A stretch of 46,874 bases of DNA from Escherichia phage SusanneMuster_Bas79, in sequence record PQ850629.1. The stretch is one strand, 5' to 3'. The notes below the pieces were generated by a model. The model had not been told where the DNA came from. It saw only the letters and a list, made by a program, of their open reading frames with translations, and made no database searches. This document shows, piece after piece, positions 17,143 to 28,269 of this stretch (the stretch's first letter is position 1; each line of letters begins with the position of its first letter). The translations under genes were made by a program, and so were the position numbers.

Positions 17143-17312
17143 TTCACCTTAATCATATGCTGTTTTGCAACCTTCAGGCACTCCTCAAAAATGCCACCCT
17201 TCTTTGCGCTCTGATTGCGCTTGTAATACTGAACTGCCGCATCAATTGCCATCTGGTCGATTTCAGGCAGTTTGGTACGTAGTTGTTTTTCAATGAATTG
17301 TTCTGGTGTCAT
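17139..17312 (-). CDS. hypothetical small protein (57 aa)
   Basis: hand-translated MTPEQFIEKQLRTKLPEIDQMAID...; overlaps stop of methyltransferase and start of DnaN-like gene. Confidence 0.35.
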   Translation of the reverse strand: MTPEQFIEKQLRTKLPEIDQMAIDAAVQYYKRNQSAKKGGIFEECLKVAKQHMIKVK

Positions 17313-18112
17313 TAAACGGACCTCATGAATGCTTTAATGAATTCTGCTGCGACTTGTGGAACTATGGCATTGCCATAACCGCGCAATCGTCCCACTCTTG
17401 CGGATACCCCATGAGTTGCCTCGCAAAATCCGCCTGGTATGACTCTAGTTTCCTTATCTGCTCCATGGTTGGGTTTCCATGAATCCCATAAACATGAAGC
17501 CACATCTGGCGATAAAGAGTATCGTTCCTGAATTTTCCGTCCTTTCTGTAAAATGTCTTGCTGAGATCCCCGTAATCCTTCCATCCTCGCGCCGTTGGTG
17601 TCGCCCATCCTCGCGCCAAAGATGATTCTTTTCCTTTCCTGTGGAGAGCCGACGCTGCAAGCTGGCAATACTGACGCCCCGCAGGCGTAGCCTTTGTCTT
17701 CCAGGTTAAGGAATACAAAATCGAGCCAGTGCTTCCCAATTGCTGCTGCAACCTGCTCTCCAAACAGCAATTCAGGCTTGCACTCTCTGATGAGCCTGAG
17801 AAATGCTGGGGCAAGGTGTCGATCGTCGTCAAATCCGAGAGACTTACCGGCAACGCTAAACGGCTGGCAAGGTGGTGATCCTGTCCAGAGTCGAGTGCTT
17901 TCTGGTATTCCTGCCAGCTGGAGTGCAAGGGGCCACCCTCCGATTCCGGCAAAGAAGTGACACTGTGTAAATCCTTCCAGGTCTGAAGGGGTGACTTCGG
18001 TGATTGATCGTTCATCGACATATCCGTAAGGAATTAGTTTATTGTTAATTAATTCACGCAGCCATGCCGCTGCGCCCTTGTCCCACTCATTGTAATAGTG
18101 GACCATCATCAC
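17312..18112 (-). CDS. DNA (cytosine-5)-methyltransferase
   Basis: motif I FAGIGGW, motif IV PPCQPFS, motif VI FGEQV, motif X GNAIVPQV; compact 266 aa. Confidence 0.85.
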   Translation of the reverse strand: MMMVHYYNEWDKGAAAWLRELINNKLIPYGYVDERSITEVTPSDLEGFTQCHFFAGIGGWPLALQLAGIPESTRLWTGSPPCQPFSVAGKSLGFDDDRHLAPAFLRLIRECKPELLFGEQVAAAIGKHWLDFVFLNLEDKGYACGASVLPACSVGSPQERKRIIFGARMGDTNGARMEGLRGSQQDILQKGRKIQERYSLSPDVASCLWDSWKPNHGADKETRVIPGGFCEATHGVSARVGRLRGYGNAIVPQVAAEFIKAFMRSV

Positions 18113-18918
18113 ATCTTCTCCAGAATTGCCATCACCTCGTGAATATCAGCAACAGGAATCTGGATAAACTCCTCATTCTCTGCCACTACATGACCAGCAG
18201 GAAGAATAACGTGGTCAGCTGGCTTCAGTAACTCAATCAGTCGGTCTACTGGCTTAATCTTTTTCGACTTAAGCACCTTCGCCGTTACCTTATCCTTGCC
18301 TTGCGCCTTCGCTTCTTCGACTGCCTCGTCGATAACTTTAACCGCATCATCGCCATGTTCGCGAGTTACTGCTACGGCATTTGCATAGCTGATTTGCCCT
18401 GCACTGATTCGCGCTTTTACTTCGGCTGGCACATCACCCAGTGACAGGTGCATCTGCACGTCAGAAACTGAGCGCCCTACCTTCTTGGCGATTTCCTCGT
18501 TGGTCCAGCCAAAACCCTTCAGTCGCGTGTAAGCCTTTGCGCGTTCAAACGGGTCAAGCTGCTTACCCTGACTGGACGACACCATGAAGGCGATTTTATC
18601 TGCTTCGCCTCCTGTGAAATCCTTGCACTCAATACGAACAATTGGTGCGCCACGCTCAATGGCACGCAACGCTCCGAGATAGCGATGCTGACCATCAAGA
18701 ATGCGGATTCCCTTCTCGTCTGGAATAACTGTTAATGCTGGCAATGGCTGACCTGACTCCCAGCACTGCGCGAAATACTCCACATGCTGCTCATCTGCTT
18801 CGCGGATGTTGTATCCTGGTTCCAGATAGATTTGCTCAACTGGCACGAGATATGTCTTGTTTACCGCGATTCCGTTGCGCGTTTCTTTGTCTGAATAGAT
18901 TTTGCTTAGTGTTTTCAT
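18109..18918 (-). CDS. ParB/Srx-domain protein (ParB-like nuclease domain)
   Basis: N-terminal ILDGQHRYLGALRA (ParB box GxxRxxA), Lys/Ala-rich linker, C-terminal domain; 4-nt overlap with methyltransferase gene. Confidence 0.7.
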   Translation of the reverse strand: MKTLSKIYSDKETRNGIAVNKTYLVPVEQIYLEPGYNIREADEQHVEYFAQCWESGQPLPALTVIPDEKGIRILDGQHRYLGALRAIERGAPIVRIECKDFTGGEADKIAFMVSSSQGKQLDPFERAKAYTRLKGFGWTNEEIAKKVGRSVSDVQMHLSLGDVPAEVKARISAGQISYANAVAVTREHGDDAVKVIDEAVEEAKAQGKDKVTAKVLKSKKIKPVDRLIELLKPADHVILPAGHVVAENEEFIQIPVADIHEVMAILEKM

Positions 18919-18921
18919 TGT

Positions 18922-19563
18922 TTACTCCTCATCACCGGAATTAGCAATATCGTAAAACTGACCGTATGTTATCTGCTTAAAGTTATCAGGTATCGTTACC
19001 TGTCCATGACCTTCACCTTTTGTATTTGGCACGGCAAAAATCAGGCAATCATCCTTTTGCGGGTGTTTGCCGCCATGAGTAGACAGCATTGCAAAACCAA
19101 ATCCGCGACCAGATTGCTCTCCGATTCCGGTGCGTGCGATGCCATAATGATTAACAATATAGTCTTTCCATTCTGGCAATAACTTTAATTTCTCGTTTGC
19201 CTCGCGCATCACCGCGTCCAGATTTTTGTTGTATTCCCGCCCGTCTTTTGTGTTTCCTTTTCCGCGAGCCACGATTACACGCTGACCATCCAAGAACTCT
19301 TCGCGCTTTATTGTCACAGGGCACGGAAATTCAAACTGCTTACTCCACACAAAGCTCTCAAGTAAGCCACCACCGACTGCTCCCCAGCTACGTGTCGTGG
19401 TGAAAGCGATAGCGCCAACCTTTTTCATGGCGTCGCCAAGAACTTCATTGCGGCGCTTTTGGATGTCATCATATGCGTCAATAACTTTCTTAACATCAGC
19501 ACCTTCAACCATGTAATAATCATAATGTTTTGCATTGCTGCTCATCTTCATCACCTCTAGCAT
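18922..19563 (-). CDS. hypothetical protein (about 207-213 aa)
   Basis: first gene of leftward operon; Gly-rich with acidic C-terminus; family not recognised. Confidence 0.5.
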   Translation of the reverse strand: MLEVMKMSSNAKHYDYYMVEGADVKKVIDAYDDIQKRRNEVLGDAMKKVGAIAFTTTRSWGAVGGGLLESFVWSKQFEFPCPVTIKREEFLDGQRVIVARGKGNTKDGREYNKNLDAVMREANEKLKLLPEWKDYIVNHYGIARTGIGEQSGRGFGFAMLSTHGGKHPQKDDCLIFAVPNTKGEGHGQVTIPDNFKQITYGQFYDIANSGDEE

Positions 19564-19662: not shown

Positions 19663-19782
19663 ATGGGTTCAACAAACGGTCCTTCTCGTTCGCGCGCTAC
19701 TGGAAATACCAAAACTGGCGGAAAAACTGGCGCAGTTAAGCCAAACGGTTCCACCCGTTCACCATCGCGCGGGAAGAAATAA
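19663..19782 (+). CDS. small highly basic Gly/Ser/Thr-rich protein (39 aa)
   Basis: hand-translated MGSTNGPSRSRATGNTKTGGKTGAVKPNGSTRSPSRGKK; good RBS; TAATG overlap with next gene. Confidence 0.35.
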   Translation: MGSTNGPSRSRATGNTKTGGKTGAVKPNGSTRSPSRGKK

Positions 19783-20222
19783 TGTTCGGCGCAGACATTG
19801 CCATCATGATCATGTATGTGCTGGGTTTTGCCTGCACGGGCATGGTTGCGTTTCTGGTGTTCATTCCGGCAATGGCGATGTCTGTGTATCTTGGATGGGT
19901 GCTTGCTGATTCATTTCCCGCCGAATATCTGTATTACCTTGCGCAGTCTATGGTCTGGCTATTCCCGGCTATTGCACTGCGCAAAAGTACAAAAATGGCG
20001 CTCTGCGTGCTGACGATGAGCCTTTACGAATGGCTGGTAGCGATAGAGTCATTCGTATGGGAATTTATCACGCCTGTAGAAACGCCGCTTCATGCGCAGT
20101 ACGCATTTATTATTATCGGCATCCATCTGTTCATCCTTTCCATCACTTTTAAATGGGGCGGCGAAATTGGACATTATTCTTGGCGTGGTCGCCATTGTTT
20201 TTTCGCTGATTCAAGTCTATAA
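19782..20222 (+). CDS. integral membrane protein (about 4 TM segments)
   Basis: 146 aa, strongly hydrophobic. Confidence 0.45.
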   Translation: MFGADIAIMIMYVLGFACTGMVAFLVFIPAMAMSVYLGWVLADSFPAEYLYYLAQSMVWLFPAIALRKSTKMALCVLTMSLYEWLVAIESFVWEFITPVETPLHAQYAFIIIGIHLFILSITFKWGGEIGHYSWRGRHCFFADSSL

Positions 20223-20254
20223 GTGCTGGAAACATATCATCAGCGAGACACGCA

Positions 20255-20539
20255 ATGAACGAAACACTAAGGCAGGCAGCAGAGCAAGTTATAAGCGGGA
20301 CGACAGGACAGGTGATTGACAAGGCTGGATATGCCTCCATTGGTACTGGTATTGGACTGAAAGTTGCAGAGCAAACGCCTGTCACGCAGTCTTATTTTGA
20401 GGCTATGATTCCACACAGTCTGACGGAGTGGGCGGCAGTAGCGTCAATCCTTGGCGCTCTGTCTCTGGTAATAAAGAACCTGTTTGAAATGTGGTGGAAA
20501 GTCCGGGAGTCAAAGAGAAATGACAGCACCAACACCTGA
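20255..20539 (+). CDS. hypothetical protein with C-terminal hydrophobic segment
   Basis: 94 aa; WAAVASILGALSLVIKNLF segment near C-terminus. Confidence 0.4.
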   Translation: MNETLRQAAEQVISGTTGQVIDKAGYASIGTGIGLKVAEQTPVTQSYFEAMIPHSLTEWAAVASILGALSLVIKNLFEMWWKVRESKRNDSTNT

Positions 20540-22085: not shown

Positions 22086-22086
22086 A

Positions 22087-22112
22087 TAAAGCCGCACGAA
22101 GCGGCCTTATTG
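22087..22112 (+). terminator. weak hairpin terminator
   Basis: stem GCCGC / GCGGC with ACGAA loop followed by CTTATT. Confidence 0.4.
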
Positions 22113-22119
22113 CTGGTTT

Positions 22120-22830
22120 AAGCATTGCCAGCATGCTTTCTTAATATCCAGCCCCGTAACCCATACATACCCCTACATATGATTGCGATAATGCTGGATA
22201 TTAAGTGTTGTGGTGGCCGGTGCTGATATCCGGCATAAGGCGCTTATTCGGCGGCGTCGAGCTTGCTTATTCGCTTGAGCCATCCTCGTGAGTCAGCCAC
22301 GTCCCACTGCGCATCAGCCTGCGCATTCACCACAACGGAAATAGCACTGGATAACCAAGCGCGCAGACTCTTCACGATTATCTGCTCAATGCTCTTACCT
22401 GTTGTGTGCCACGTTTCGTGTGGCTTACGGCAACGACATTACCGGGTTATTCGCTGCACCCTTGAGGGATTTACTAAGGCGACATGCCCGTTGTTACCCA
22501 CGAATGAGAGTACTGTCTTCGAGCAGACTTTGCCGCGCAAGAACGACGATCAATCACAATACCCTCATTTGTGGGTGCCCATTATTAATCACAGCGGGCC
22601 ACTGCGCCGAATTTGCTTACAAGGAATCGGAAGACCTTGCTGACTTACAGGCTATTACGCCGCCATCAGAACAACATCATCGTTTGCATTTATCTTTGTG
22701 GTCAGTTTCTAAAAAGTCCGCAAAGTCGCTTACGAAAACCATCTGAAATACAATCTACACCACAAAATAATCACTGTCAACACCTGTGATATAATCACCA
22801 CGTTAGCAGCTAACACAATTCGGAGATCGA
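22120..22830. other. ORF-free, inverted-repeat-rich region of about 0.7 kb upstream of major tail gene
   Basis: no plausible ORF on either strand; perfect 12-bp inverted repeat TTAATATCCAGC / GCTGGATATTAA (22141-22152 / 22192-22203); long-range inverted repeat CCCACGAATGAG / CTCATTTGTGGG (about 22497-22510 / 22563-22575); promoter elements at 22751-22796. Confidence 0.5.
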
Positions 22831-22831
22831 A

Positions 22832-23548
22832 ATGGCTATTTGTGCAAATGATAAAGGCGTTCTGGTCGGTCGCATGACCAGACTGTTCCTTGCTGAAGGG
22901 TGCGGAGACGCAGTTCCGGAGGCGGGAGACTGGAAGTATTTAGGCTCAACCACCAGTAAGGGTGTTGACTACTCGCCGCAGACTACCACGTCGGAGGCAG
23001 ATACCACTGGCGGTTTTGTTTCCACTCTCGTTACCAGCTCTGATATGACCATCAGCGCAGAGGTGGAAATCCGCAAGAATGACCCGAGCGATGAGTTTGG
23101 CTTCCATCGTCTGGTTGAGATTTACGCCACCGAACTGAAAGCTCGTCGCCAGCCTTCCTTGTGGGTGCGTCAGGTGACTGGTGCGACTATCGTTACGGCG
23201 TATTGCAACATCACCAGCATCAGCTACGAAGGTGGTACGAACGATATCGTTACTGGCAGCCTTGAGTTCAAGGTTTACGATTCTGATAGCGTTACCGTCG
23301 AAAGCCTTGAGCCTCTGGCATTCACTACAGACCTGCCATCAACTGGCACGGCTGGCAACCCGTTAACTGTTGCTGTTGAAGGTGGTGTCGCTCCTTACAC
23401 TTATGTATGGCGCAAAGATGGCGTGGTTGTCGGCAGCGAATCAGGCGCGTCTCTGGCAAGCCCTACCGCTGGCGTGTATACCGTCACGGTGACTGATTCG
23501 TCTACTGACCCTGAAATTATTATCAGCACGGCTTGCACTGTGTCCTGA
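22832..23548 (+). CDS. major tail protein with C-terminal Ig-like domain
   Basis: 238 aa; Thr/Ser/Val-rich C-terminal segment (TVAVEGGVAPYTYVWRKDG...YTVTVTD) typical of Ig-like decoration domains; followed by strong terminator. Confidence 0.7.
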   Translation: MAICANDKGVLVGRMTRLFLAEGCGDAVPEAGDWKYLGSTTSKGVDYSPQTTTSEADTTGGFVSTLVTSSDMTISAEVEIRKNDPSDEFGFHRLVEIYATELKARRQPSLWVRQVTGATIVTAYCNITSISYEGGTNDIVTGSLEFKVYDSDSVTVESLEPLAFTTDLPSTGTAGNPLTVAVEGGVAPYTYVWRKDGVVVGSESGASLASPTAGVYTVTVTDSSTDPEIIISTACTVS

Positions 23549-23551
23549 TAA

Positions 23552-23582
23552 ATAAAAAAGCCCCGGAAGGGGCTTGTTTTAT
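23552..23582. terminator. bidirectional rho-independent terminator
   Basis: AATAAAAAAGCCCCGGAAGGGGCTTGTTTTATT. Confidence 0.6.
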
Positions 23583-23845
23583 TCTTGCGGTGGCTCTGGT
23601 AGTGGCATCCAGTGGGTGGCATCACTAATCCAGCCATATTCATTAGTTTGAGGGTGATTACCGCGCCCATCTCCGTATTTAAAACTCTCCATAAAGCCAT
23701 AATGTTTATCACCATTAATGTTCACAAAACCGTAATAAGCAGGAATAACGCCGATCTCACACGTAACCAGTAAGGGAAAACTAGTTCTCCAGTTTAGCTC
23801 GCCAATTACAGGCATCCTCTCACTGCACTTAATCCACTGGATCAT
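23579..23845 (-). CDS. DUF551-like protein
   Basis: 88 aa; N-terminal WIKCSERMP and C-terminal THWMPLPEPP resemble DUF551 hallmarks. Confidence 0.6.
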   Translation of the reverse strand: MIQWIKCSERMPVIGELNWRTSFPLLVTCEIGVIPAYYGFVNINGDKHYGFMESFKYGDGRGNHPQTNEYGWISDATHWMPLPEPPQE

Positions 23846-23985
23846 ATCACCTTATCCTCATCAAAAATCACACCAATCACACGAAGCAAGTCTTTCGCCA
23901 TGCGTTCAGCTTCTTCATAGTCGTAACCCGCATCGACATACAAATCGGTGTAGAAAATCAGGTCGGATTTTGTTTGTTCGTTCAT
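23842..23985 (-). CDS. hypothetical small acidic protein (47 aa)
   Basis: hand-translated MNEQTKSDLIFYTDLYVDAGYDYEEAERMAKDLL...; 4-nt overlaps on both sides. Confidence 0.3.
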   Translation of the reverse strand: MNEQTKSDLIFYTDLYVDAGYDYEEAERMAKDLLRVIGVIFDEDKVI

Positions 23986-24188
23986 TTTTTATCGTCGCTC
24001 TTAACTAATGCCCAAACAAGCGCGGCGACCCAGCCAATAAAACTCCATCCAACGAGAATATTCAGTACGCAGATTGCAGTCGTGTTTACGTGCTTGCGTT
24101 GCAGAGCCACAAAAGATGGCAGGAGGTACGCAAATATCACCAACCCAACAAAAAACAACAAAATAACGACGTCCATAGCTAACCTCAA
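23982..24188 (-). CDS. superinfection-immunity-type small membrane protein
   Basis: 68 aa; YLLPSFVALQRKHVNTTAICVLNILVGWSFIGWVAALVWAL matches the pattern of the small Imm-type superinfection immunity membrane protein family. Confidence 0.7.
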   Translation of the reverse strand: MRLAMDVVILLFFVGLVIFAYLLPSFVALQRKHVNTTAICVLNILVGWSFIGWVAALVWALVKSDDKK

Positions 24189-24208
24189 CTGTTAATAACT
24201 TGTTTATA

Positions 24209-24502
24209 TTACATGCCATTCTTTTCACACAAAGCAACAGCCACATCACGCAATTGCTCTTTAGTCATATCCTTGCGTGCATAAACCATTTCTACGATAG
24301 CAAGGCCGATTATTTCTGCTGATTCGTTGTTTTTTGCAGAACCTTTTACCACCACTTCCGCAAGATTCTTGCTGATACCGTTATCGCGAACATCAGCAGT
24401 GTTCATGGCGATTTCTCCAATGTTTTTGCACATATCGGAAGTCGCACTGGCGGCAAAAGAAGAAGCCAATAGTACAGATGCAATCAACATTTTAATTTTC
24501 AT
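24209..24502 (-). CDS. secreted small protein (signal peptide), function unknown
   Basis: 97 aa; N-terminal MKIKMLIASVLLASSFAASA resembles a Sec signal peptide; two Cys. Confidence 0.5.
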   Translation of the reverse strand: MKIKMLIASVLLASSFAASATSDMCKNIGEIAMNTADVRDNGISKNLAEVVVKGSAKNNESAEIIGLAIVEMVYARKDMTKEQLRDVAVALCEKNGM

Positions 24503-24610
24503 AACTCACCTCATTTATTCATCACTCGTTTCGATGACTTGAATCTACATCACCACCTCGCAGGTGTCAACACCACTGAGATGATATAATCAACATCAGT
24601 CAAATTCAGG
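24503..24610. promoter_or_regulatory. divergent promoter region
   Basis: box TTGAATCTACATCACC (24539-24554), extended -10 TGATATAAT (24582-24590) upstream of ATG 24611. Confidence 0.4.
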
Positions 24611-25327
24611 ATGCAAAACATGAGCAATCGCACGCCACTAACAGAAATCGGGGAGATGCGCATCTCTCTTTCTGACAGGAGTTTTTTCTTTAAGCCATCA
24701 TTCCGCGCAATGAATGAAATTGGCACACCAAAAGAAATCGTCGAGGTGTACGCTAAGCTCAATGGCATTGATTATGTTGCGCCATTGCAGCACGTCGAGT
24801 ACCTGCCATTTGGCGCGCAGATGCAGGTTATGAAGACCATCAGCAAGCCTGTTTATGGTCGCCATGTGCTGAGTGCGGCCTATATCGTAATGCAGTCATG
24901 CTGTGAAGATGATGTTTCTGTGCTGATTGGTGGATGGAAGCCAACTCCGCGCGGCGTGCGATATGTGCCGGGCATCATGCCTGTGAGCGACATTATTATT
25001 ATTGCGCGCAACCTGATGCAGCACGGCGTCATTGGCAAATCACCACTCAAAGTGCCTGAACGCCTGGAAGAGCAGGGCAAGAAAACCACAAACGAGTTTC
25101 ATGCGTCTCAATACATCATCTCAGCACGCACGCATTTCGACATGACGCGCGATGAGGCTGAAAACCTGTCTATGACAGAGTTTCAAATGATGATTAAGAA
25201 TAAATATCCAGAGCCGAAAGGGTTAACGAAAGAAGAGCGCGCGGCAGAGTACGATCAGGCCAAAGCAGACCGTGAGCGCATGAAGGCACTGGCTGAACGC
25301 AAAGCGAAAAAAGCGAGGAATACATAA
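24611..25327 (+). CDS. tail assembly chaperone (by position)
   Basis: 238 aa ORF immediately upstream of and overlapping tape measure gene; Lys/Glu-rich C-terminus. Confidence 0.45.
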   Translation: MQNMSNRTPLTEIGEMRISLSDRSFFFKPSFRAMNEIGTPKEIVEVYAKLNGIDYVAPLQHVEYLPFGAQMQVMKTISKPVYGRHVLSAAYIVMQSCCEDDVSVLIGGWKPTPRGVRYVPGIMPVSDIIIIARNLMQHGVIGKSPLKVPERLEEQGKKTTNEFHASQYIISARTHFDMTRDEAENLSMTEFQMMIKNKYPEPKGLTKEERAAEYDQAKADRERMKALAERKAKKARNT

Positions 25328-28268
25328 TGGCTGAAGAAGTCGGCGGAATTGTCTATGAAGTCGGGATGGATGTATCCGGACTTAAAGCTGGCACAAGTTC
25401 AGCGGAATCAGAATTATCAAAATTTGACTCCGCTGTAAGTGGCTCCACGAAGAATTTAAATAAACTTGATGGTCAGGCTGACTCAACTGGCAAGGCATTC
25501 TCCTCCCTTGTCTCCGTGGTTAAAAGCATTGATGCAACACTCAGCAAGATGGCAGCTTCCAGTGATGGTGCAGCAAGCGCTGTCAAGTCAACATCGCAAT
25601 CTGCTGAGTCAGCGAATCAGGTTATCGATGCATTAAATCAGCAACTTGCCATGATGCAGCAGCAACAGCAACAAGCCGCTGTATCAACAGGAAGGCTGGA
25701 AACCTCAATTAATGCCGTTACGACTGCTATTCGTGAGCTTGGAACATCAACTGGCGGCGCTGGCGCAAGCATATCTGGCACAGAAAGATTAATTGAAAGC
25801 CTCGGCAATCAGGTTGCCATTCTTGAAGAGCAAATGGAAAACGGCGCGAGAAGTGCGGCAATTCTTGCGGCGCAACTCAGAGCTGGAGATGGCGCAACTG
25901 ACGCGCAAAAGGCCAAGATTGCTGAGCTGACTGGTCGCCTGTACGACATGAAGAATGGCACAGAGTCGGCTGGCAAATCCACAAACGGATTCAGGAACGC
26001 GCTACAACAGGGCGGTTATCAGGTTCAGGACTTTATTGTTCAGGTTCAGAGTGGGCAGTCTGCTCTTGTTGCATTCAGTCAGCAGGGTTCGCAACTTGCA
26101 TCTGTATTCAGTCCGGTGGCTGGCGCAGTGTTAACGATAGCGACAGTTATCGCCGGCTCACTGATGGCCTCACTTAGTAACGGCAAGAATGCCATTAATG
26201 CCATGAAGGATGCCATATCTGCAATGGATCAGGTCATCAGTGTTTCCAGTAACGGCGTGGCAGCATACTCAGATAAGTTTGCAGCACTGGCAAAAGCCAA
26301 CACAACAGTTGCGACACTGATGCGCCAGCAAGCGCAACTTGAACTTTCAGCGGCTCTCTCTAAGGTATCGAAAGAAGTATCAAAAGCATCAGGTGAGTTC
26401 GTCACCTTTGGTGACAGACTTTTCGCATCTTTTGCTGGTGCAAACGTCAGCGTTAAATCATTCAACGATTACCTCTCAATGCTGAATATCACTACCAATG
26501 ATTTCAGCGAGGCAATGAAGCAGGCTGCATCTGCCGGACTTGCCGGGCAATCCACGATGAATAATATGATTGCCACCGTTGGCGCTCTGGCAAGTCGATT
26601 TGATTTGACCGACCAGCAAGCATTTGAATTTGCTAAACAACTCTCTGAAATCGCCAAAAACCCGAGCAATGAAAAACTTAATGCTTTAATTGTTACTCTG
26701 CAAAAGGTAGGTGAAGGACAGTCATCTGGCGCACAAAAGGCACGAGAATATGCTGCTCGTTTGCTGGAAATTGCCACCACAACAACTGACGCAACAATGC
26801 GCCTGAAAGCTCTTAAGGAGATGACTGACTCCTTAACGTCAAGTCAGGACAAGGCATTGCAAACTGCTCGTCAGACACTGTTTATTGAGAAGCAAACTGG
26901 CGATGAAAAACTAAAAGCTCAGGCATGGCGTGATGCGGAGGCTCAGGGATTAAAGCAGAATACCGCTGCGTTTCGTGAATATTACAATGTCAGACTTGAG
27001 ACGTACCGTCAGCAGGAAAAAAACGCTCAGGCAGCAAAAGATGAACGTAATGCAAACAACCAGCTAAAAACTGAATTAAAGCAACAGGAAACAATCCAGC
27101 AGAAATTAAATAAACTGCGGCAGGAAGCTCTACTTGCTGGTCAGGCAGAATCCACAAAAGAACTATCCCGCGAGCAAGCCATTCTCAACGCGCAGCAATC
27201 GCTTGGCAAAGCTGCCACTCAGGAGCAAATAAAACTGGCTGGTGAGTACGCTGCGAAGATTTGGGACCAGAAGAATGCACTGAAGGAACAGGCGGAAGCG
27301 GAGAAAGAAAAGCAGCGGGTAGAAAAATCATATCAGGGATTACGTGCCATTGCGTCACCAACGACTGGCATTGACAGCGAATACCAGCAACGCATGGCTG
27401 ACCTTGATGCTTATGCTGCTGCGTACCCACAGAAAATTACAGAGATTGAACAGACTCGCGCGTCCATTGAAGCACAATACCGCCAGCAGAGAATGGATGC
27501 TATGTGGGCTGAATGGCAGCAACAAAGCCTCGGAGCGCAACTGTTTGGCACCGCGCTGGATTCTGCAATGAGCACGGCATCAAACAGCATCACCGGATTG
27601 CTGACAGGTACAATGAGCGTTCAGGATGCCATGCGCAGTCTCGGCTCTACAGTGCTTAACTCGCTGGTAAATAGCTTCGTCGAGATGGGCGTGCAGTGGG
27701 TAAAATCTGCCGTTATGGGACAGACTGCACAGGTTACGGCTACGGCAACCACAACGGCTGCGCAAACGGCAGGACTGGCAACTACAACAGCAGCATCCAC
27801 TGCGGCGGCAGCCACCACCACGGCAGCGTGGACTCCGGCAGCAATCGTCGCATCAATCGGTTCATTCGGCGGCGCTGCTGCAATTGGGGTAGGCGCTGTT
27901 CTTGGGGCGCTGGCGATGGGTATCGCTGGCAAGCGAAAAAATGGTGGTCCTGTTAGCGCCGGAAGTATGTACGAAGTGGGCGAAAATGGCTTACCTGAGA
28001 TATTCCAGGCATCCAACGGTCGCCAGTACATGATTCCCGGAAATGACGGTTCAGTTATCAGCAACAAAGACCTGACAGGCGGCAGCGGTGGCGTCGTGGT
28101 TTATAATAGCATCATCAATAACAGCTCAGCGCAGGTTAGCAGCAGCGCCAGAGATAATGGTGATGGCAGCGTAACAGTTGAGACGATTGTGAGTGATATT
28201 GAGAACAACGGCGCGATAGGGCAGGCTATTTCAAGAAATTACTCAACAAACCGGAGAGCAACAGAATA

Positions 28269-28269
<1 letters not shown>
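25327..28269 (+). CDS. tail tape measure protein
   Basis: 980 aa, long helical Ala/Gln/Lys-rich sequence, internal hydrophobic segments and a Thr/Ala low-complexity tract. Confidence 0.85.

What the first reader, a model, noticed from the sequence alone, without database searches (positions are those of the whole stretch)
23579..24502. Leftward four-gene moron inside the tail module, with a superinfection-immunity-type membrane protein
Between the major tail gene terminator and the tail assembly chaperone promoter sits an oppositely oriented, translationally coupled operon: a signal-peptide protein (97 aa), a small membrane protein matching the superinfection immunity pattern (GWSFIGWVAALVWAL), an acidic 47-aa protein and a DUF551-like protein. 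Placement inside the late structural region with its own terminator is typical of a horizontally acquired exclusion cassette that protects infected cells from competing phages.
Basis: partly seen in the sequence, partly recalled or inferred. Interest (0 to 1): 0.6.

Follow-up and report, generated by a model that had tools for sequence, protein, structure and literature searches.

The report
Opposite-strand accessory operon with Imm gene
Four small genes read backwards between the tail-tube and tape-measure genes of a Skatevirus-type phage form a swappable accessory operon; one gene is a clear relative of the phage T4 protein that blocks DNA entry by later-arriving phages, which relatives' database annotations already say but nobody has tested.

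Summary
Four minus-strand genes at 23579-24502 form one transcription unit between the major tail gene and the DUF6246/tape-measure genes. It has a conserved sigma-70-type promoter and a bidirectional terminator shared with the tail gene.

Gene 2 is a true member of the T4 Imm family: Pfam 63.6 bits, 36% identity to T4 Imm, and both residues needed for T4 Imm function are kept. Gene 4 is DUF551. Gene 1 (sp97) is an exported four-helix protein of a rare family, not T4 Spackle. Gene 3 (a47) is an acidic protein specific to this lineage. Genes 1-3 are under purifying selection.

The slot is empty in 13 distant relatives and filled in all 41 Skatevirus-clade loci examined. Its content is combinatorial: sp97 and/or Imm, then a47, sometimes NinX, then DUF551. 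The "acquired exclusion cassette" reading is therefore partly supported. Only Imm belongs to an exclusion family, the phenotype is untested, and GenBank relatives already carry this annotation.

Cassette content tracks the type of the adjacent tape measure protein.

Separately, the neighbouring leftward unit (about 22090-22780) encodes an unannotated structured RNA with a tmRNA-like tag frame. It occurs in 527 phage records and deserves its own follow-up.

The parts
24542..24570 (-). Leftward sigma-70-type promoter TTGACA-N17-TAGATT that drives the cassette
   Evidence: This exact pattern occurs only twice in the window against 0.02 expected. Both hexamers are kept while the spacer differs (N17 or N18) in divergent relatives L029, L040 and L042. 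Function is predicted, not shown.
24209..24502 (-). sp97: exported 97-aa protein. It has a Sec signal peptide with cleavage after ASA, and a mature domain of about 76 aa modelled as four helices with invariant Cys25 and Cys92.
   Evidence: phrog_2315 of unknown function, no Pfam match. Rare family: 10 cluster representatives at E<1e-3 among 1.84 billion. Invariant C25, A36, R39, D40, G42, Y74, C92. AF2 pLDDT 83.8. pN/pS 0.15.
23982..24176 (-). Imm: 64-aa inner-membrane protein of the T4 superinfection-immunity family (an alternative TTG start at 24188 gives 68 aa)
   Evidence: PF14373 63.6 bits. phrog_1039 'immunity to superinfection'. 36% identity over 53 aa to T4 Imm, E 9e-12, with T4 R33 and W50 aligned to R27 and W44. 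pN/pS 0.09.
23842..23985 (-). a47: acidic 47-aa protein (pI 4.1), the most conserved gene of the cassette, overlapping the Imm stop codon (ATGA)
   Evidence: phrog_17424. The family is confined to this phage group. Found in 42 loci, including the clade at 65% identity. pN/pS 0.05.
23579..23845 (-). DUF551 protein, 88 aa, overlapping the a47 stop codon (ATGA). Its termini are conserved and its middle is hypervariable.
   Evidence: PF04448 43.6 bits against a cut-off of 22. 34 distinct proteins of 58-88 aa among relatives, with termini WIKCSERMP and THWMPLPEPPQE.
23558..23575 (.). Bidirectional intrinsic terminator (AAGCCCC-GGAA-GGGGCTT with T-runs on both strands) that ends both the major tail gene and the cassette
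   Evidence: The same feature is annotated in phage Skate.
24582..24590 (+). Extended -10 element TGATATAAT of the rightward promoter for the DUF6246 and tape measure genes, back to back with the leftward promoter
   Evidence: The same module is repeated upstream of the major tail gene at 22787-22795.
22832..23548 (+). Left flank: major tail protein with a C-terminal Ig-like domain
   Evidence: phrog_853, E 1.3e-87.
24611..25327 (+). Right flank: DUF6246 protein at the position where a tail assembly chaperone gene normally sits
   Evidence: PF19759, E 2e-73.
25327..28269 (+). Tape measure protein (980 aa), the class of protein that T4 Imm binds. Hydrophobic segments lie near residues 258-285 and 836-875.
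   Evidence: phrog_1538, E 2.7e-201. Sequence. Variability profile. T4 Imm-TMP binding from bioRxiv 10.64898/2026.03.06.709160.

Best explanation
The block is a host-RNA-polymerase-driven accessory operon. It sits in a recombination-prone slot between the major tail gene and the tape-measure operon of a Skatevirus-type siphovirus.

It is transcribed leftward from a near-consensus sigma-70 promoter and stops at the bidirectional terminator. That would allow expression as soon as the DNA enters the cell (inferred).

Its first two products go to the cell envelope. sp97 is exported to the periplasm, where its two invariant cysteines probably form a disulfide. Imm inserts into the inner membrane.

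By homology with T4 Imm, Imm most likely stops later-arriving phages from passing their DNA across the inner membrane, by binding the incoming tape measure protein (inferred from family membership and conserved functional residues).

sp97 is most plausibly a second, periplasmic entry-blocking factor (weak inference).

a47 and DUF551 are cytoplasmic proteins of unknown role that travel with the slot.
For: Shown here:
- Operon anatomy.
- Promoter hexamers conserved across divergent spacers.
- Imm family membership, direct similarity to T4 Imm, and conservation of R33 and W50, which are needed for T4 Imm activity.
- Purifying selection on sp97, Imm and a47.
- The slot is empty in 13 distant relatives and filled in all 41 Skatevirus-clade loci, every one carrying sp97 and/or Imm at the promoter-proximal end.
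- Gene content is patchy relative to the flanks.
- GC is lower than in the flanks.
- Independent parallels: Jerseyvirus and Klebsiella phage KP591P1 also carry Imm at the head of an opposite-strand cassette between the major tail gene and the chaperone/tape-measure genes.
- HK97 places its unrelated exclusion moron gp15 just before the tape measure gene. gp15 is reported to act through the tape measure protein.
- Cassette content tracks tape measure type. Short type: Imm in 17 of 17. Long type: sp97 in 16 of 16. Fisher p = 9e-4 and 9e-5.
Against: - There is no functional evidence for any siphovirus Imm homologue in the papers I could search.
- Imm allele distance does not correlate with tape measure distance (Spearman -0.04). 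The association with tape measure type could be plain physical linkage or shared ancestry.
- This Imm is shorter than T4 Imm (64 against 83 aa).
- sp97 resembles no known exclusion protein.
- Promoter, timing, signal-peptide cleavage and disulfide are all predictions.
- Two of the four genes have no link to exclusion.
Confidence: 0.55

Rival explanations
1. The operon is a clade-core developmental or host-takeover unit rather than an exclusion cassette. a47 and DUF551 would be its essential business, for example modulating a host process early in infection. The envelope proteins would be optional passengers with some other membrane role.
For: a47 is present in 42 of 42 loci and is the most constrained gene (pN/pS 0.05). 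DUF551 is present in 39 loci. NinX and DUF551 are typical of early accessory regions of lambdoid phages.
Against: The whole slot is absent from 13 distant relatives with the same tail genes. Imm membership is strong. Every clade member keeps at least one envelope gene at the head of the operon.
Confidence: 0.2
2. Imm and sp97 are counter-defence or self-protection factors. They would act on host envelope-based defences that attack DNA injection or the tape measure protein, or on the phage's own lysis timing, rather than on competing phages.
For: Host inner-membrane defences that act during genome injection exist (title of PMC13190303, listed). The sp97 homologue of Klebsiella phage KP591P1 lies next to the endolysin gene. 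A weak PADLOC match of Imm to a 2TM module (E 0.002) shows only that such membrane modules occur in defence systems.
Against: The only characterised family member, T4 Imm, acts on superinfecting phage and binds the phage tape measure protein. In this window the cassette is not adjacent to lysis genes.
Confidence: 0.12
3. The association with the tail module means nothing. The terminator after a highly expressed major tail gene is simply a tolerated insertion site, and the four genes are unrelated cargo with no joint function.
For: Gene content is combinatorial and mosaic. A second leftward unit with unrelated cargo (tRNAs and a structured RNA) sits in the next intergenic slot under the same promoter module.
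Against: Imm recurs at the same slot in unrelated Jerseyvirus. The order is constant, with envelope genes first, then a47, then DUF551. There are ATGA overlaps. Cassette content is associated with tape measure type.
Confidence: 0.13

Closest known systems
Bacteriophage T4 Imm (Pfam PF14373 Imm_superinfect)
   Same: Homologous small inner-membrane protein: 36% identity over 53 aa, the shared motif YxLPxxxALxR...GWxxIGWxxxxxWA, and T4 R33 and W50 conserved. Encoded by a phage isolated and studied as a lytic phage. The expected action is a block of genome translocation through the tape measure protein.
   Different: 64 aa instead of 83, lacking the C-terminal tail. The host phage is a siphovirus. 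The gene lies inside the tail module next to the tape measure gene, whereas T4 imm lies between genes 42 and 43. No phenotype has been tested.
HK97 gp15 moron (superinfection exclusion acting through the tape measure protein)
   Same: A small membrane-protein gene with its own terminator, inserted immediately before the tape measure gene of a siphovirus. It is reported to block genome entry through the tape measure protein (PMC3594210 listed).
   Different: No sequence similarity. It has the same orientation as the tail genes, is a single gene, and belongs to a temperate phage where it is expressed from the prophage.
Imm-headed opposite-strand cassettes of Jerseyvirus (phage Shelanagig) and Klebsiella phage KP591P1
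   Same: The same slot (between the major tail gene and the chaperone/tape-measure genes), the same opposite orientation, Imm as first gene, and a bidirectional terminator next to the major tail gene. The Jerseyvirus Imm is 40% identical.
   Different: The downstream cargo differs: an HTH regulator/nuclease and an antirepressor in Jerseyvirus, and 42-aa and 92-aa proteins in KP591P1. Neither cassette contains sp97. In KP591P1 the sp97 homologue lies beside the endolysin gene.
T4 Spackle (Sp), the periplasmic exclusion partner of Imm
   Same: sp97 is likewise a small (97-aa precursor) Sec-exported helical protein encoded alongside an Imm gene. The size and location of Sp are from my own knowledge.
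DUF551 domain (Ea22 variant V2 of Stx phages, E. coli prophage protein YfdS) and P22 NinX
   Same: ORF4 passes the DUF551 threshold. The extra gene in 14 relatives passes the NinX threshold. Both are portable accessory domains of lambdoid early regions (PMC10834534).
   Different: Here they are stand-alone 58-88-aa and 96-137-aa proteins inside a tail module. Their function is unknown in every context.

Membership tests
T4 Imm / Pfam PF14373 Imm_superinfect | Profile match above the curated threshold | tested here: met
   63.6 bits against a cut-off of 27.9, covering profile positions 2-42 of 42. phrog_1039, E 7e-24.
T4 Imm / Pfam PF14373 Imm_superinfect | Direct similarity to the characterised T4 protein and conservation of residues needed for its activity (R33, W50) | tested here: met
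   BLASTP 36% identity over 53 aa, E 9e-12. R27 and W44 align with T4 R33 and W50. The mutational data come from bioRxiv 10.64898/2026.03.06.709160.
T4 Imm / Pfam PF14373 Imm_superinfect | Small hydrophobic inner-membrane protein | tested here: met
   64 aa, GRAVY 1.27, two long hydrophobic stretches. Localisation itself was not tested.
T4 Imm / Pfam PF14373 Imm_superinfect | Blocks DNA entry of superinfecting phage and binds the tape measure protein | not testable with these tools
   Needs plating, injection and binding assays.
Moron (independent transcription unit added to a phage operon) | Own promoter and terminator between genes of a conserved operon | tested here: met
   A conserved TTGACA-N17-TAGATT promoter and a bidirectional terminator. 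Both are predictions from sequence and conservation.
Moron (independent transcription unit added to a phage operon) | Absent from relatives in which the flanking genes are adjacent; composition differs from the flanks | tested here: met
   13 distant relatives have the major tail gene and the DUF6246 gene 64-328 bp apart. GC is 40-45% against 50-55%.
Moron (independent transcription unit added to a phage operon) | Expressed from the repressed prophage to the benefit of the lysogen | not tested
   No lysogeny module was looked for. The nearest relative, Bas77, was isolated as a plaque-forming phage on E. coli K-12.
T4 Spackle (for sp97) | Sequence or fold similarity to Spackle | tested here: not met
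Pfam PF04448 DUF551 (for ORF4) | Profile match above the curated threshold | tested here: met
   43.6 bits against a cut-off of 22, full-length profile.
tmRNA (for the neighbouring RNA noticed in passing) | Tag reading frame without a start codon, opening at an alanine codon and ending in a hydrophobic Ala-rich tail, followed by pseudoknots | tested here: met
   All 94 unique copies have 10 codons, giving 14 different peptides of the type ANDDVVLMAA. A pseudoknot is supported by three covarying states in 93 of 93 copies.
tmRNA (for the neighbouring RNA noticed in passing) | tRNA-like domain with acceptor stem, T-arm and CCA end; match to curated tmRNA models | tested here: not met
   ARAGORN finds none. 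The Rfam tmRNA_permuted match is 28.5 bits against a gathering score of 47. The 3' CACCACAAC pairs with the upstream GTTGTGGTG (read).

The most novel reading that the evidence does not exclude
The slot next to the tape measure gene is a dedicated entry-immunity locus, and each phage keeps the blocker that matches its own tape measure type. Imm would block the short type (778-792 aa; Imm in 17 of 17). The new periplasmic family sp97 would block the long type (816-1097 aa; sp97 in 16 of 16). Phages carrying both would exclude both classes. On this reading the hypervariable N-terminal 600 residues of the tape measure protein are the other side of an arms race, and sp97 is a new kind of exclusion protein.
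Probability: 0.25. Interest if true: 0.6.

Novelty: new member of a known kind. Interest (0 to 1): 0.3.

Why it matters
Superinfection exclusion shapes which phages can co-infect and recombine, and it matters when designing phage cocktails. T4 Imm was recently reported to work by binding the tape measure protein. A natural collection of near-identical Skatevirus phages that differ in Imm, sp97 and tape measure type includes the isolates Bas77 and Bas78. It would be a ready-made panel to test whether that mechanism extends to siphoviruses and whether sp97 is a new exclusion factor. In itself, the finding mostly confirms existing database annotation.

Tried and rejected
- sp97 as a T4 Spackle homologue: rejected. 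There is no sequence match and no fold match.
- sp97 as a lipoprotein: no lipobox before the cysteine. The cleavage site reads ASA|T.
- a47 as a relative of the 47-aa protein that follows imm in T4-like phage VR26: rejected. That protein is hydrophobic and unrelated.
- PADLOC and NCBIfam scans of the four proteins gave nothing above threshold.
- Co-variation between Imm alleles and tape measure alleles: none (Spearman -0.04).
- The first pN/pS run was wrong because of an off-by-one in my coordinates. It was redone.
- The ARAGORN 'tmRNA' call in locus L036 is built on a tRNA-Met and does not contain the conserved tag frame, so I treat it as spurious.
- The 58-nt tRNA-Ser annotated upstream of the major tail gene in phage vB_CECAV_048 led to the tRNA scan. 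The window itself has no tRNA.

Full report
**Identity of the window**

The region 22800-25400 is 98.5% identical to Escherichia phage ClaudiaMuster_Bas77. It is 90-93% identical to about 150 Salmonella, Escherichia and Shigella phages classified in or around the genus Skatevirus. Bas77 is one of the small siphoviruses that depend on the O16 O-antigen, described in the BASEL collection paper (PMC11990801).

**Checking the observation**

Their sequence features:

| Gene | Coordinates | Product | Main evidence |
|---|---|---|---|
| sp97 | 24209-24502 | 97 aa, N-terminus MKIKMLIASVLLASSFAASA followed by TSD (a standard Sec signal with an AxA site) | phrog_2315, no Pfam match |
| Imm | 23982-24188 | 68 aa from TTG; 64 aa from ATG 24176 | PF14373, 63.6 bits |
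| a47 | 23842-23985 | 47 aa, pI 4.1 | phrog_17424 |
| DUF551 | 23579-23845 | 88 aa | PF04448, E 5.4e-11 |

- For Imm, the ATG at 24176 has GAGG six bases upstream and is the start annotated in Bas77, so the product is probably 64 aa.
- The Imm/a47 and a47/DUF551 junctions are ATGA overlaps. sp97 and Imm are 32 nt apart.
- A stem-loop at 23558-23575 has T-runs on both strands. It lies 10 nt after the major tail gene stop codon and 3 nt after the DUF551 stop codon, so the terminator is shared.
- GC falls to 40-45% across the block against 50-55% in the flanks, and GC skew turns negative.
- Among 22-32 distinct alleles in relatives, pN/pS is 0.15 for sp97, 0.09 for Imm and 0.05 for a47. These are real genes under selection.

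**Promoters**

- A TTGACA-N17-TAGATT match lies at 24570..24542 on the minus strand, 40 nt upstream of the sp97 start.
- This exact pattern occurs twice in the window against 0.02 expected.
- In relatives whose intergenic sequence has diverged (L029, L040, L042), both hexamers are kept while the spacer sequence and length change. That is what a working promoter would show.
- Back to back with it is TGATATAAT, an extended -10 element that faces the DUF6246 and tape measure genes.
- The whole divergent module is repeated upstream of the major tail gene at 22752-22795.

**What the proteins are**

*Imm.* It matches T4 Imm directly: 36% identity over 53 residues, E 9e-12. It aligns R27 and W44 with T4 R33 and W50. 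A 2026 preprint reports that T4 Imm binds the tape measure protein and that R33A and W50A weaken exclusion. tblastn finds Imm homologues in 1066 phage records, including T-even phages, G7C-like podoviruses, Jerseyvirus and mycobacteriophages.

*sp97.*
- The family is rare, with ten cluster representatives at E<1e-3 among 1.84 billion.
- Invariant residues are C25, A36, R39, D40, G42, Y74 and C92.
- The AlphaFold model is confident (pLDDT 83.8) and shows a long helix that includes the signal peptide, plus three more helices.
- It matches nothing specific in the PDB.
- In the viral structure library it matches only other uncharacterised exported proteins or lipoproteins of about 100 aa, from phages of Burkholderia, Bordetella, Pseudomonas and Xanthomonas, and the 'exported phage protein' of Salmonella phage Vi II-E1.
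- It is not T4 Spackle.

*a47.* It has no relatives outside this phage group.

*DUF551.* It is a portable domain also seen in Ea22 variants of Stx phages and in YfdS (PMC10834534).

**Comparative genomics**

I fetched 51 loci through the DUF6246 gene and added GenBank relatives. I then typed every minus-strand ORF between the major tail gene and the DUF6246 gene.

- Thirteen distant relatives (DUF6246 31-50% identical) have the two genes 64-328 bp apart and no cassette.
- All 41 Skatevirus-clade loci, a few of which are duplicates of the same phage, have a cassette.

| Architecture (promoter-proximal first) | Loci |
|---|---|
| sp97 > Imm > a47 > DUF551 (includes the window) | 11 |
| sp97 > a47 > DUF551 | 7 |
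| Imm > a47 > DUF551 | 6 |
| Any of the above with a NinX gene between a47 and DUF551 | about 13 |
| A 93-aa tail-anchored membrane protein added at the head | 2 |

- Every locus has sp97, Imm or both.
- A clade at 65% identity has a47 followed by different cargo.
- Architecture is patchy relative to flank similarity. For example, the window and L002 differ by 5% in the flanks and by the presence of Imm.
- The DUF551 gene exists as 34 distinct proteins with fixed termini and a hypervariable middle.

**Parallels elsewhere**

- Jerseyvirus phage Shelanagig, unrelated at the DNA level, carries an Imm gene (40% identical) at the head of an opposite-strand cassette between its major tail gene and its chaperone/tape-measure genes. 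A bidirectional terminator sits next to the major tail gene.
- Klebsiella phage KP591P1 has Imm, a 42-aa gene and a 92-aa gene in the same slot. Its sp97 homologue sits beside the endolysin gene.
- HK97 has its unrelated exclusion moron gp15 immediately before the tape measure gene.

**Link to the tape measure protein**

- Among 34 distinct complete tape measure proteins of the clade, the N-terminal 600 residues are hypervariable (27-40% identity to the window). The C-terminal 380 residues are conserved (64-85%).
- Lengths range from 778 to 1097 aa.

| Tape measure type | Phages | With Imm | With sp97 |
|---|---|---|---|
| Short, 778-792 aa | 17 | 17 | 6 |
| Long, 816-1097 aa | 16 | 8 | 16 |

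- Fisher p is 9e-4 for Imm and 9e-5 for sp97.
- These tests ignore shared ancestry and the physical closeness of the genes.
- Imm allele distance shows no correlation with tape measure distance.
- I therefore treat this as a lead, not a result.

**Verdict on the finding**

The anatomy is confirmed, with small corrections. The Imm assignment is sound. However:
- exclusion is inferred for one gene only;
- sp97 is an unknown;
- a47 and DUF551 behave as clade-core genes;
- relatives in GenBank are already annotated 'superinfection immunity protein' and 'moron'.

It is a new member of a known kind, of modest interest. It would be more interesting if the tape-measure-type matching proves real.

**Noticed next door: a leftward RNA unit**

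The 750 bp between the tail terminator gene and the major tail gene (22086-22831) form a second leftward unit under the same promoter module.

- It has no conserved ORF.
- In most relatives its far end carries one to four tRNA genes on the minus strand. The window and Bas77 have none.
- Just after the promoter lies a conserved module (22585-22745, minus strand) that reads GAUAAAU GCA AAC GAU GAU GUU GUU CUG AUG GCG GCG UAA UAG. This gives ANDDVVLMAA, close to the E. coli SsrA tag ANDENYALAA.
- The 17-mer around the first codon occurs in at least 120 viral contigs.
- All 94 unique copies keep a 10-codon frame with no start codon and encode 14 different peptides of the same pattern.
- The frame is followed by a 5-bp stem with five Watson-Crick variants. 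Next come a pseudoknot with three covarying states in 93 of 93 copies and a second covarying pseudoknot.
- No tRNA-like domain was found, and Rfam gives only sub-threshold tmRNA hits.
- The module is present and unannotated in 527 phage records: Skatevirus, G7C-like, Ackermannviridae, FelixO1-like, P1/P7, and Klebsiella, Erwinia and Vibrio phages.
- It is also present and unannotated in 656 of 5426 complete E. coli genomes.
- In an O26 prophage it lies in the gap between the Q antiterminator gene and the holin gene.
- A 2014 survey knew of phage tmRNAs only in mycobacteriophages and Bacillus phage G (PMC4131195).
- My literature searches found nothing on this element, but the paper library is partial.

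Noticed in passing
window 22090-22780, minus strand (conserved core 22585-22745): A second leftward unit under the same TTGACA-N17-TAGATT promoter has no conserved ORF but contains a tmRNA-like message, GCA AAC GAU GAU GUU GUU CUG AUG GCG GCG UAA UAG (ANDDVVLMAA). It is followed by covarying pseudoknots. All 94 unique copies keep a 10-codon frame with no start codon, giving 14 different tag peptides. No tRNA-like domain was found and Rfam gives nothing at threshold. It is unannotated in 527 phage records and in 656 of 5426 complete E. coli genomes. It may be an undescribed phage RNA that acts on ribosome rescue.
   Followed up: partly
L184 2146-3217 (E. coli O26:H11 11368 prophage): In a lambdoid prophage the same RNA module lies in the 1.07-kb unannotated gap between the Q antiterminator gene and the holin gene. 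That places it in the late-operon leader.
   Followed up: no
window 22086-22120; loci L008-L043 just right of the tail terminator gene: Most relatives carry one to four minus-strand tRNA genes (Met, Ile, Arg, Ser, Thr) at the far end of that leftward unit. The window and Bas77 have lost them cleanly.
   Followed up: partly
window 22263-22746 plus strand; Bas77 CDS Bas77_0057: Bas77 annotates a 160-aa 'hypothetical protein' over the structured-RNA region. In the window the frame is broken into 126-aa and 114-aa ORFs, and no ORF is conserved among relatives. The CDS is probably spurious.
   Followed up: partly
window 25327-28269 (tape measure gene): Among phages whose neighbouring genes are 97-99% identical, tape measure proteins range from 778 to 1097 aa. 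The N-terminal 600 residues are hypervariable and the C-terminal 380 residues conserved. Short types always co-occur with Imm (17/17) and long types with sp97 (16/16).
   Followed up: partly
L029 3135-3416 and L042, head of the cassette: Two relatives add a 93-aa tail-anchored membrane protein in front of sp97 or Imm. Its N-terminus weakly resembles the tailspike N-terminal domain (PF18668, E 0.0015, below threshold). This may be a membrane-bound decoy.
   Followed up: no
window 19782-20539 plus strand and 17312-19563 minus strand: There are further accessory genes inside the structural region. A predicted lipoprotein (146 aa, phrog_14688) and a membrane protein (94 aa, phrog_13738, category 'moron') lie just upstream of the head-tail joining genes. 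They are preceded by a leftward block with a DNA methyltransferase and a ParB-like protein.
   Followed up: no
L007 2941-3231 (Klebsiella phage KP591P1): The only sp97 homologue outside the Skatevirus clade in the phage database (27-32% identity) lies divergently next to the endolysin gene and is followed by a 43-aa gene and a 287-aa gene. This hints at a possible link to the envelope or to lysis.
   Followed up: no
P0128 (metagenomic protein, 260 aa): A distant sp97 relative has an N-terminal membrane anchor followed by two tandem sp97 domains, each keeping the Cys...RD.G...Cys pattern.
   Followed up: no
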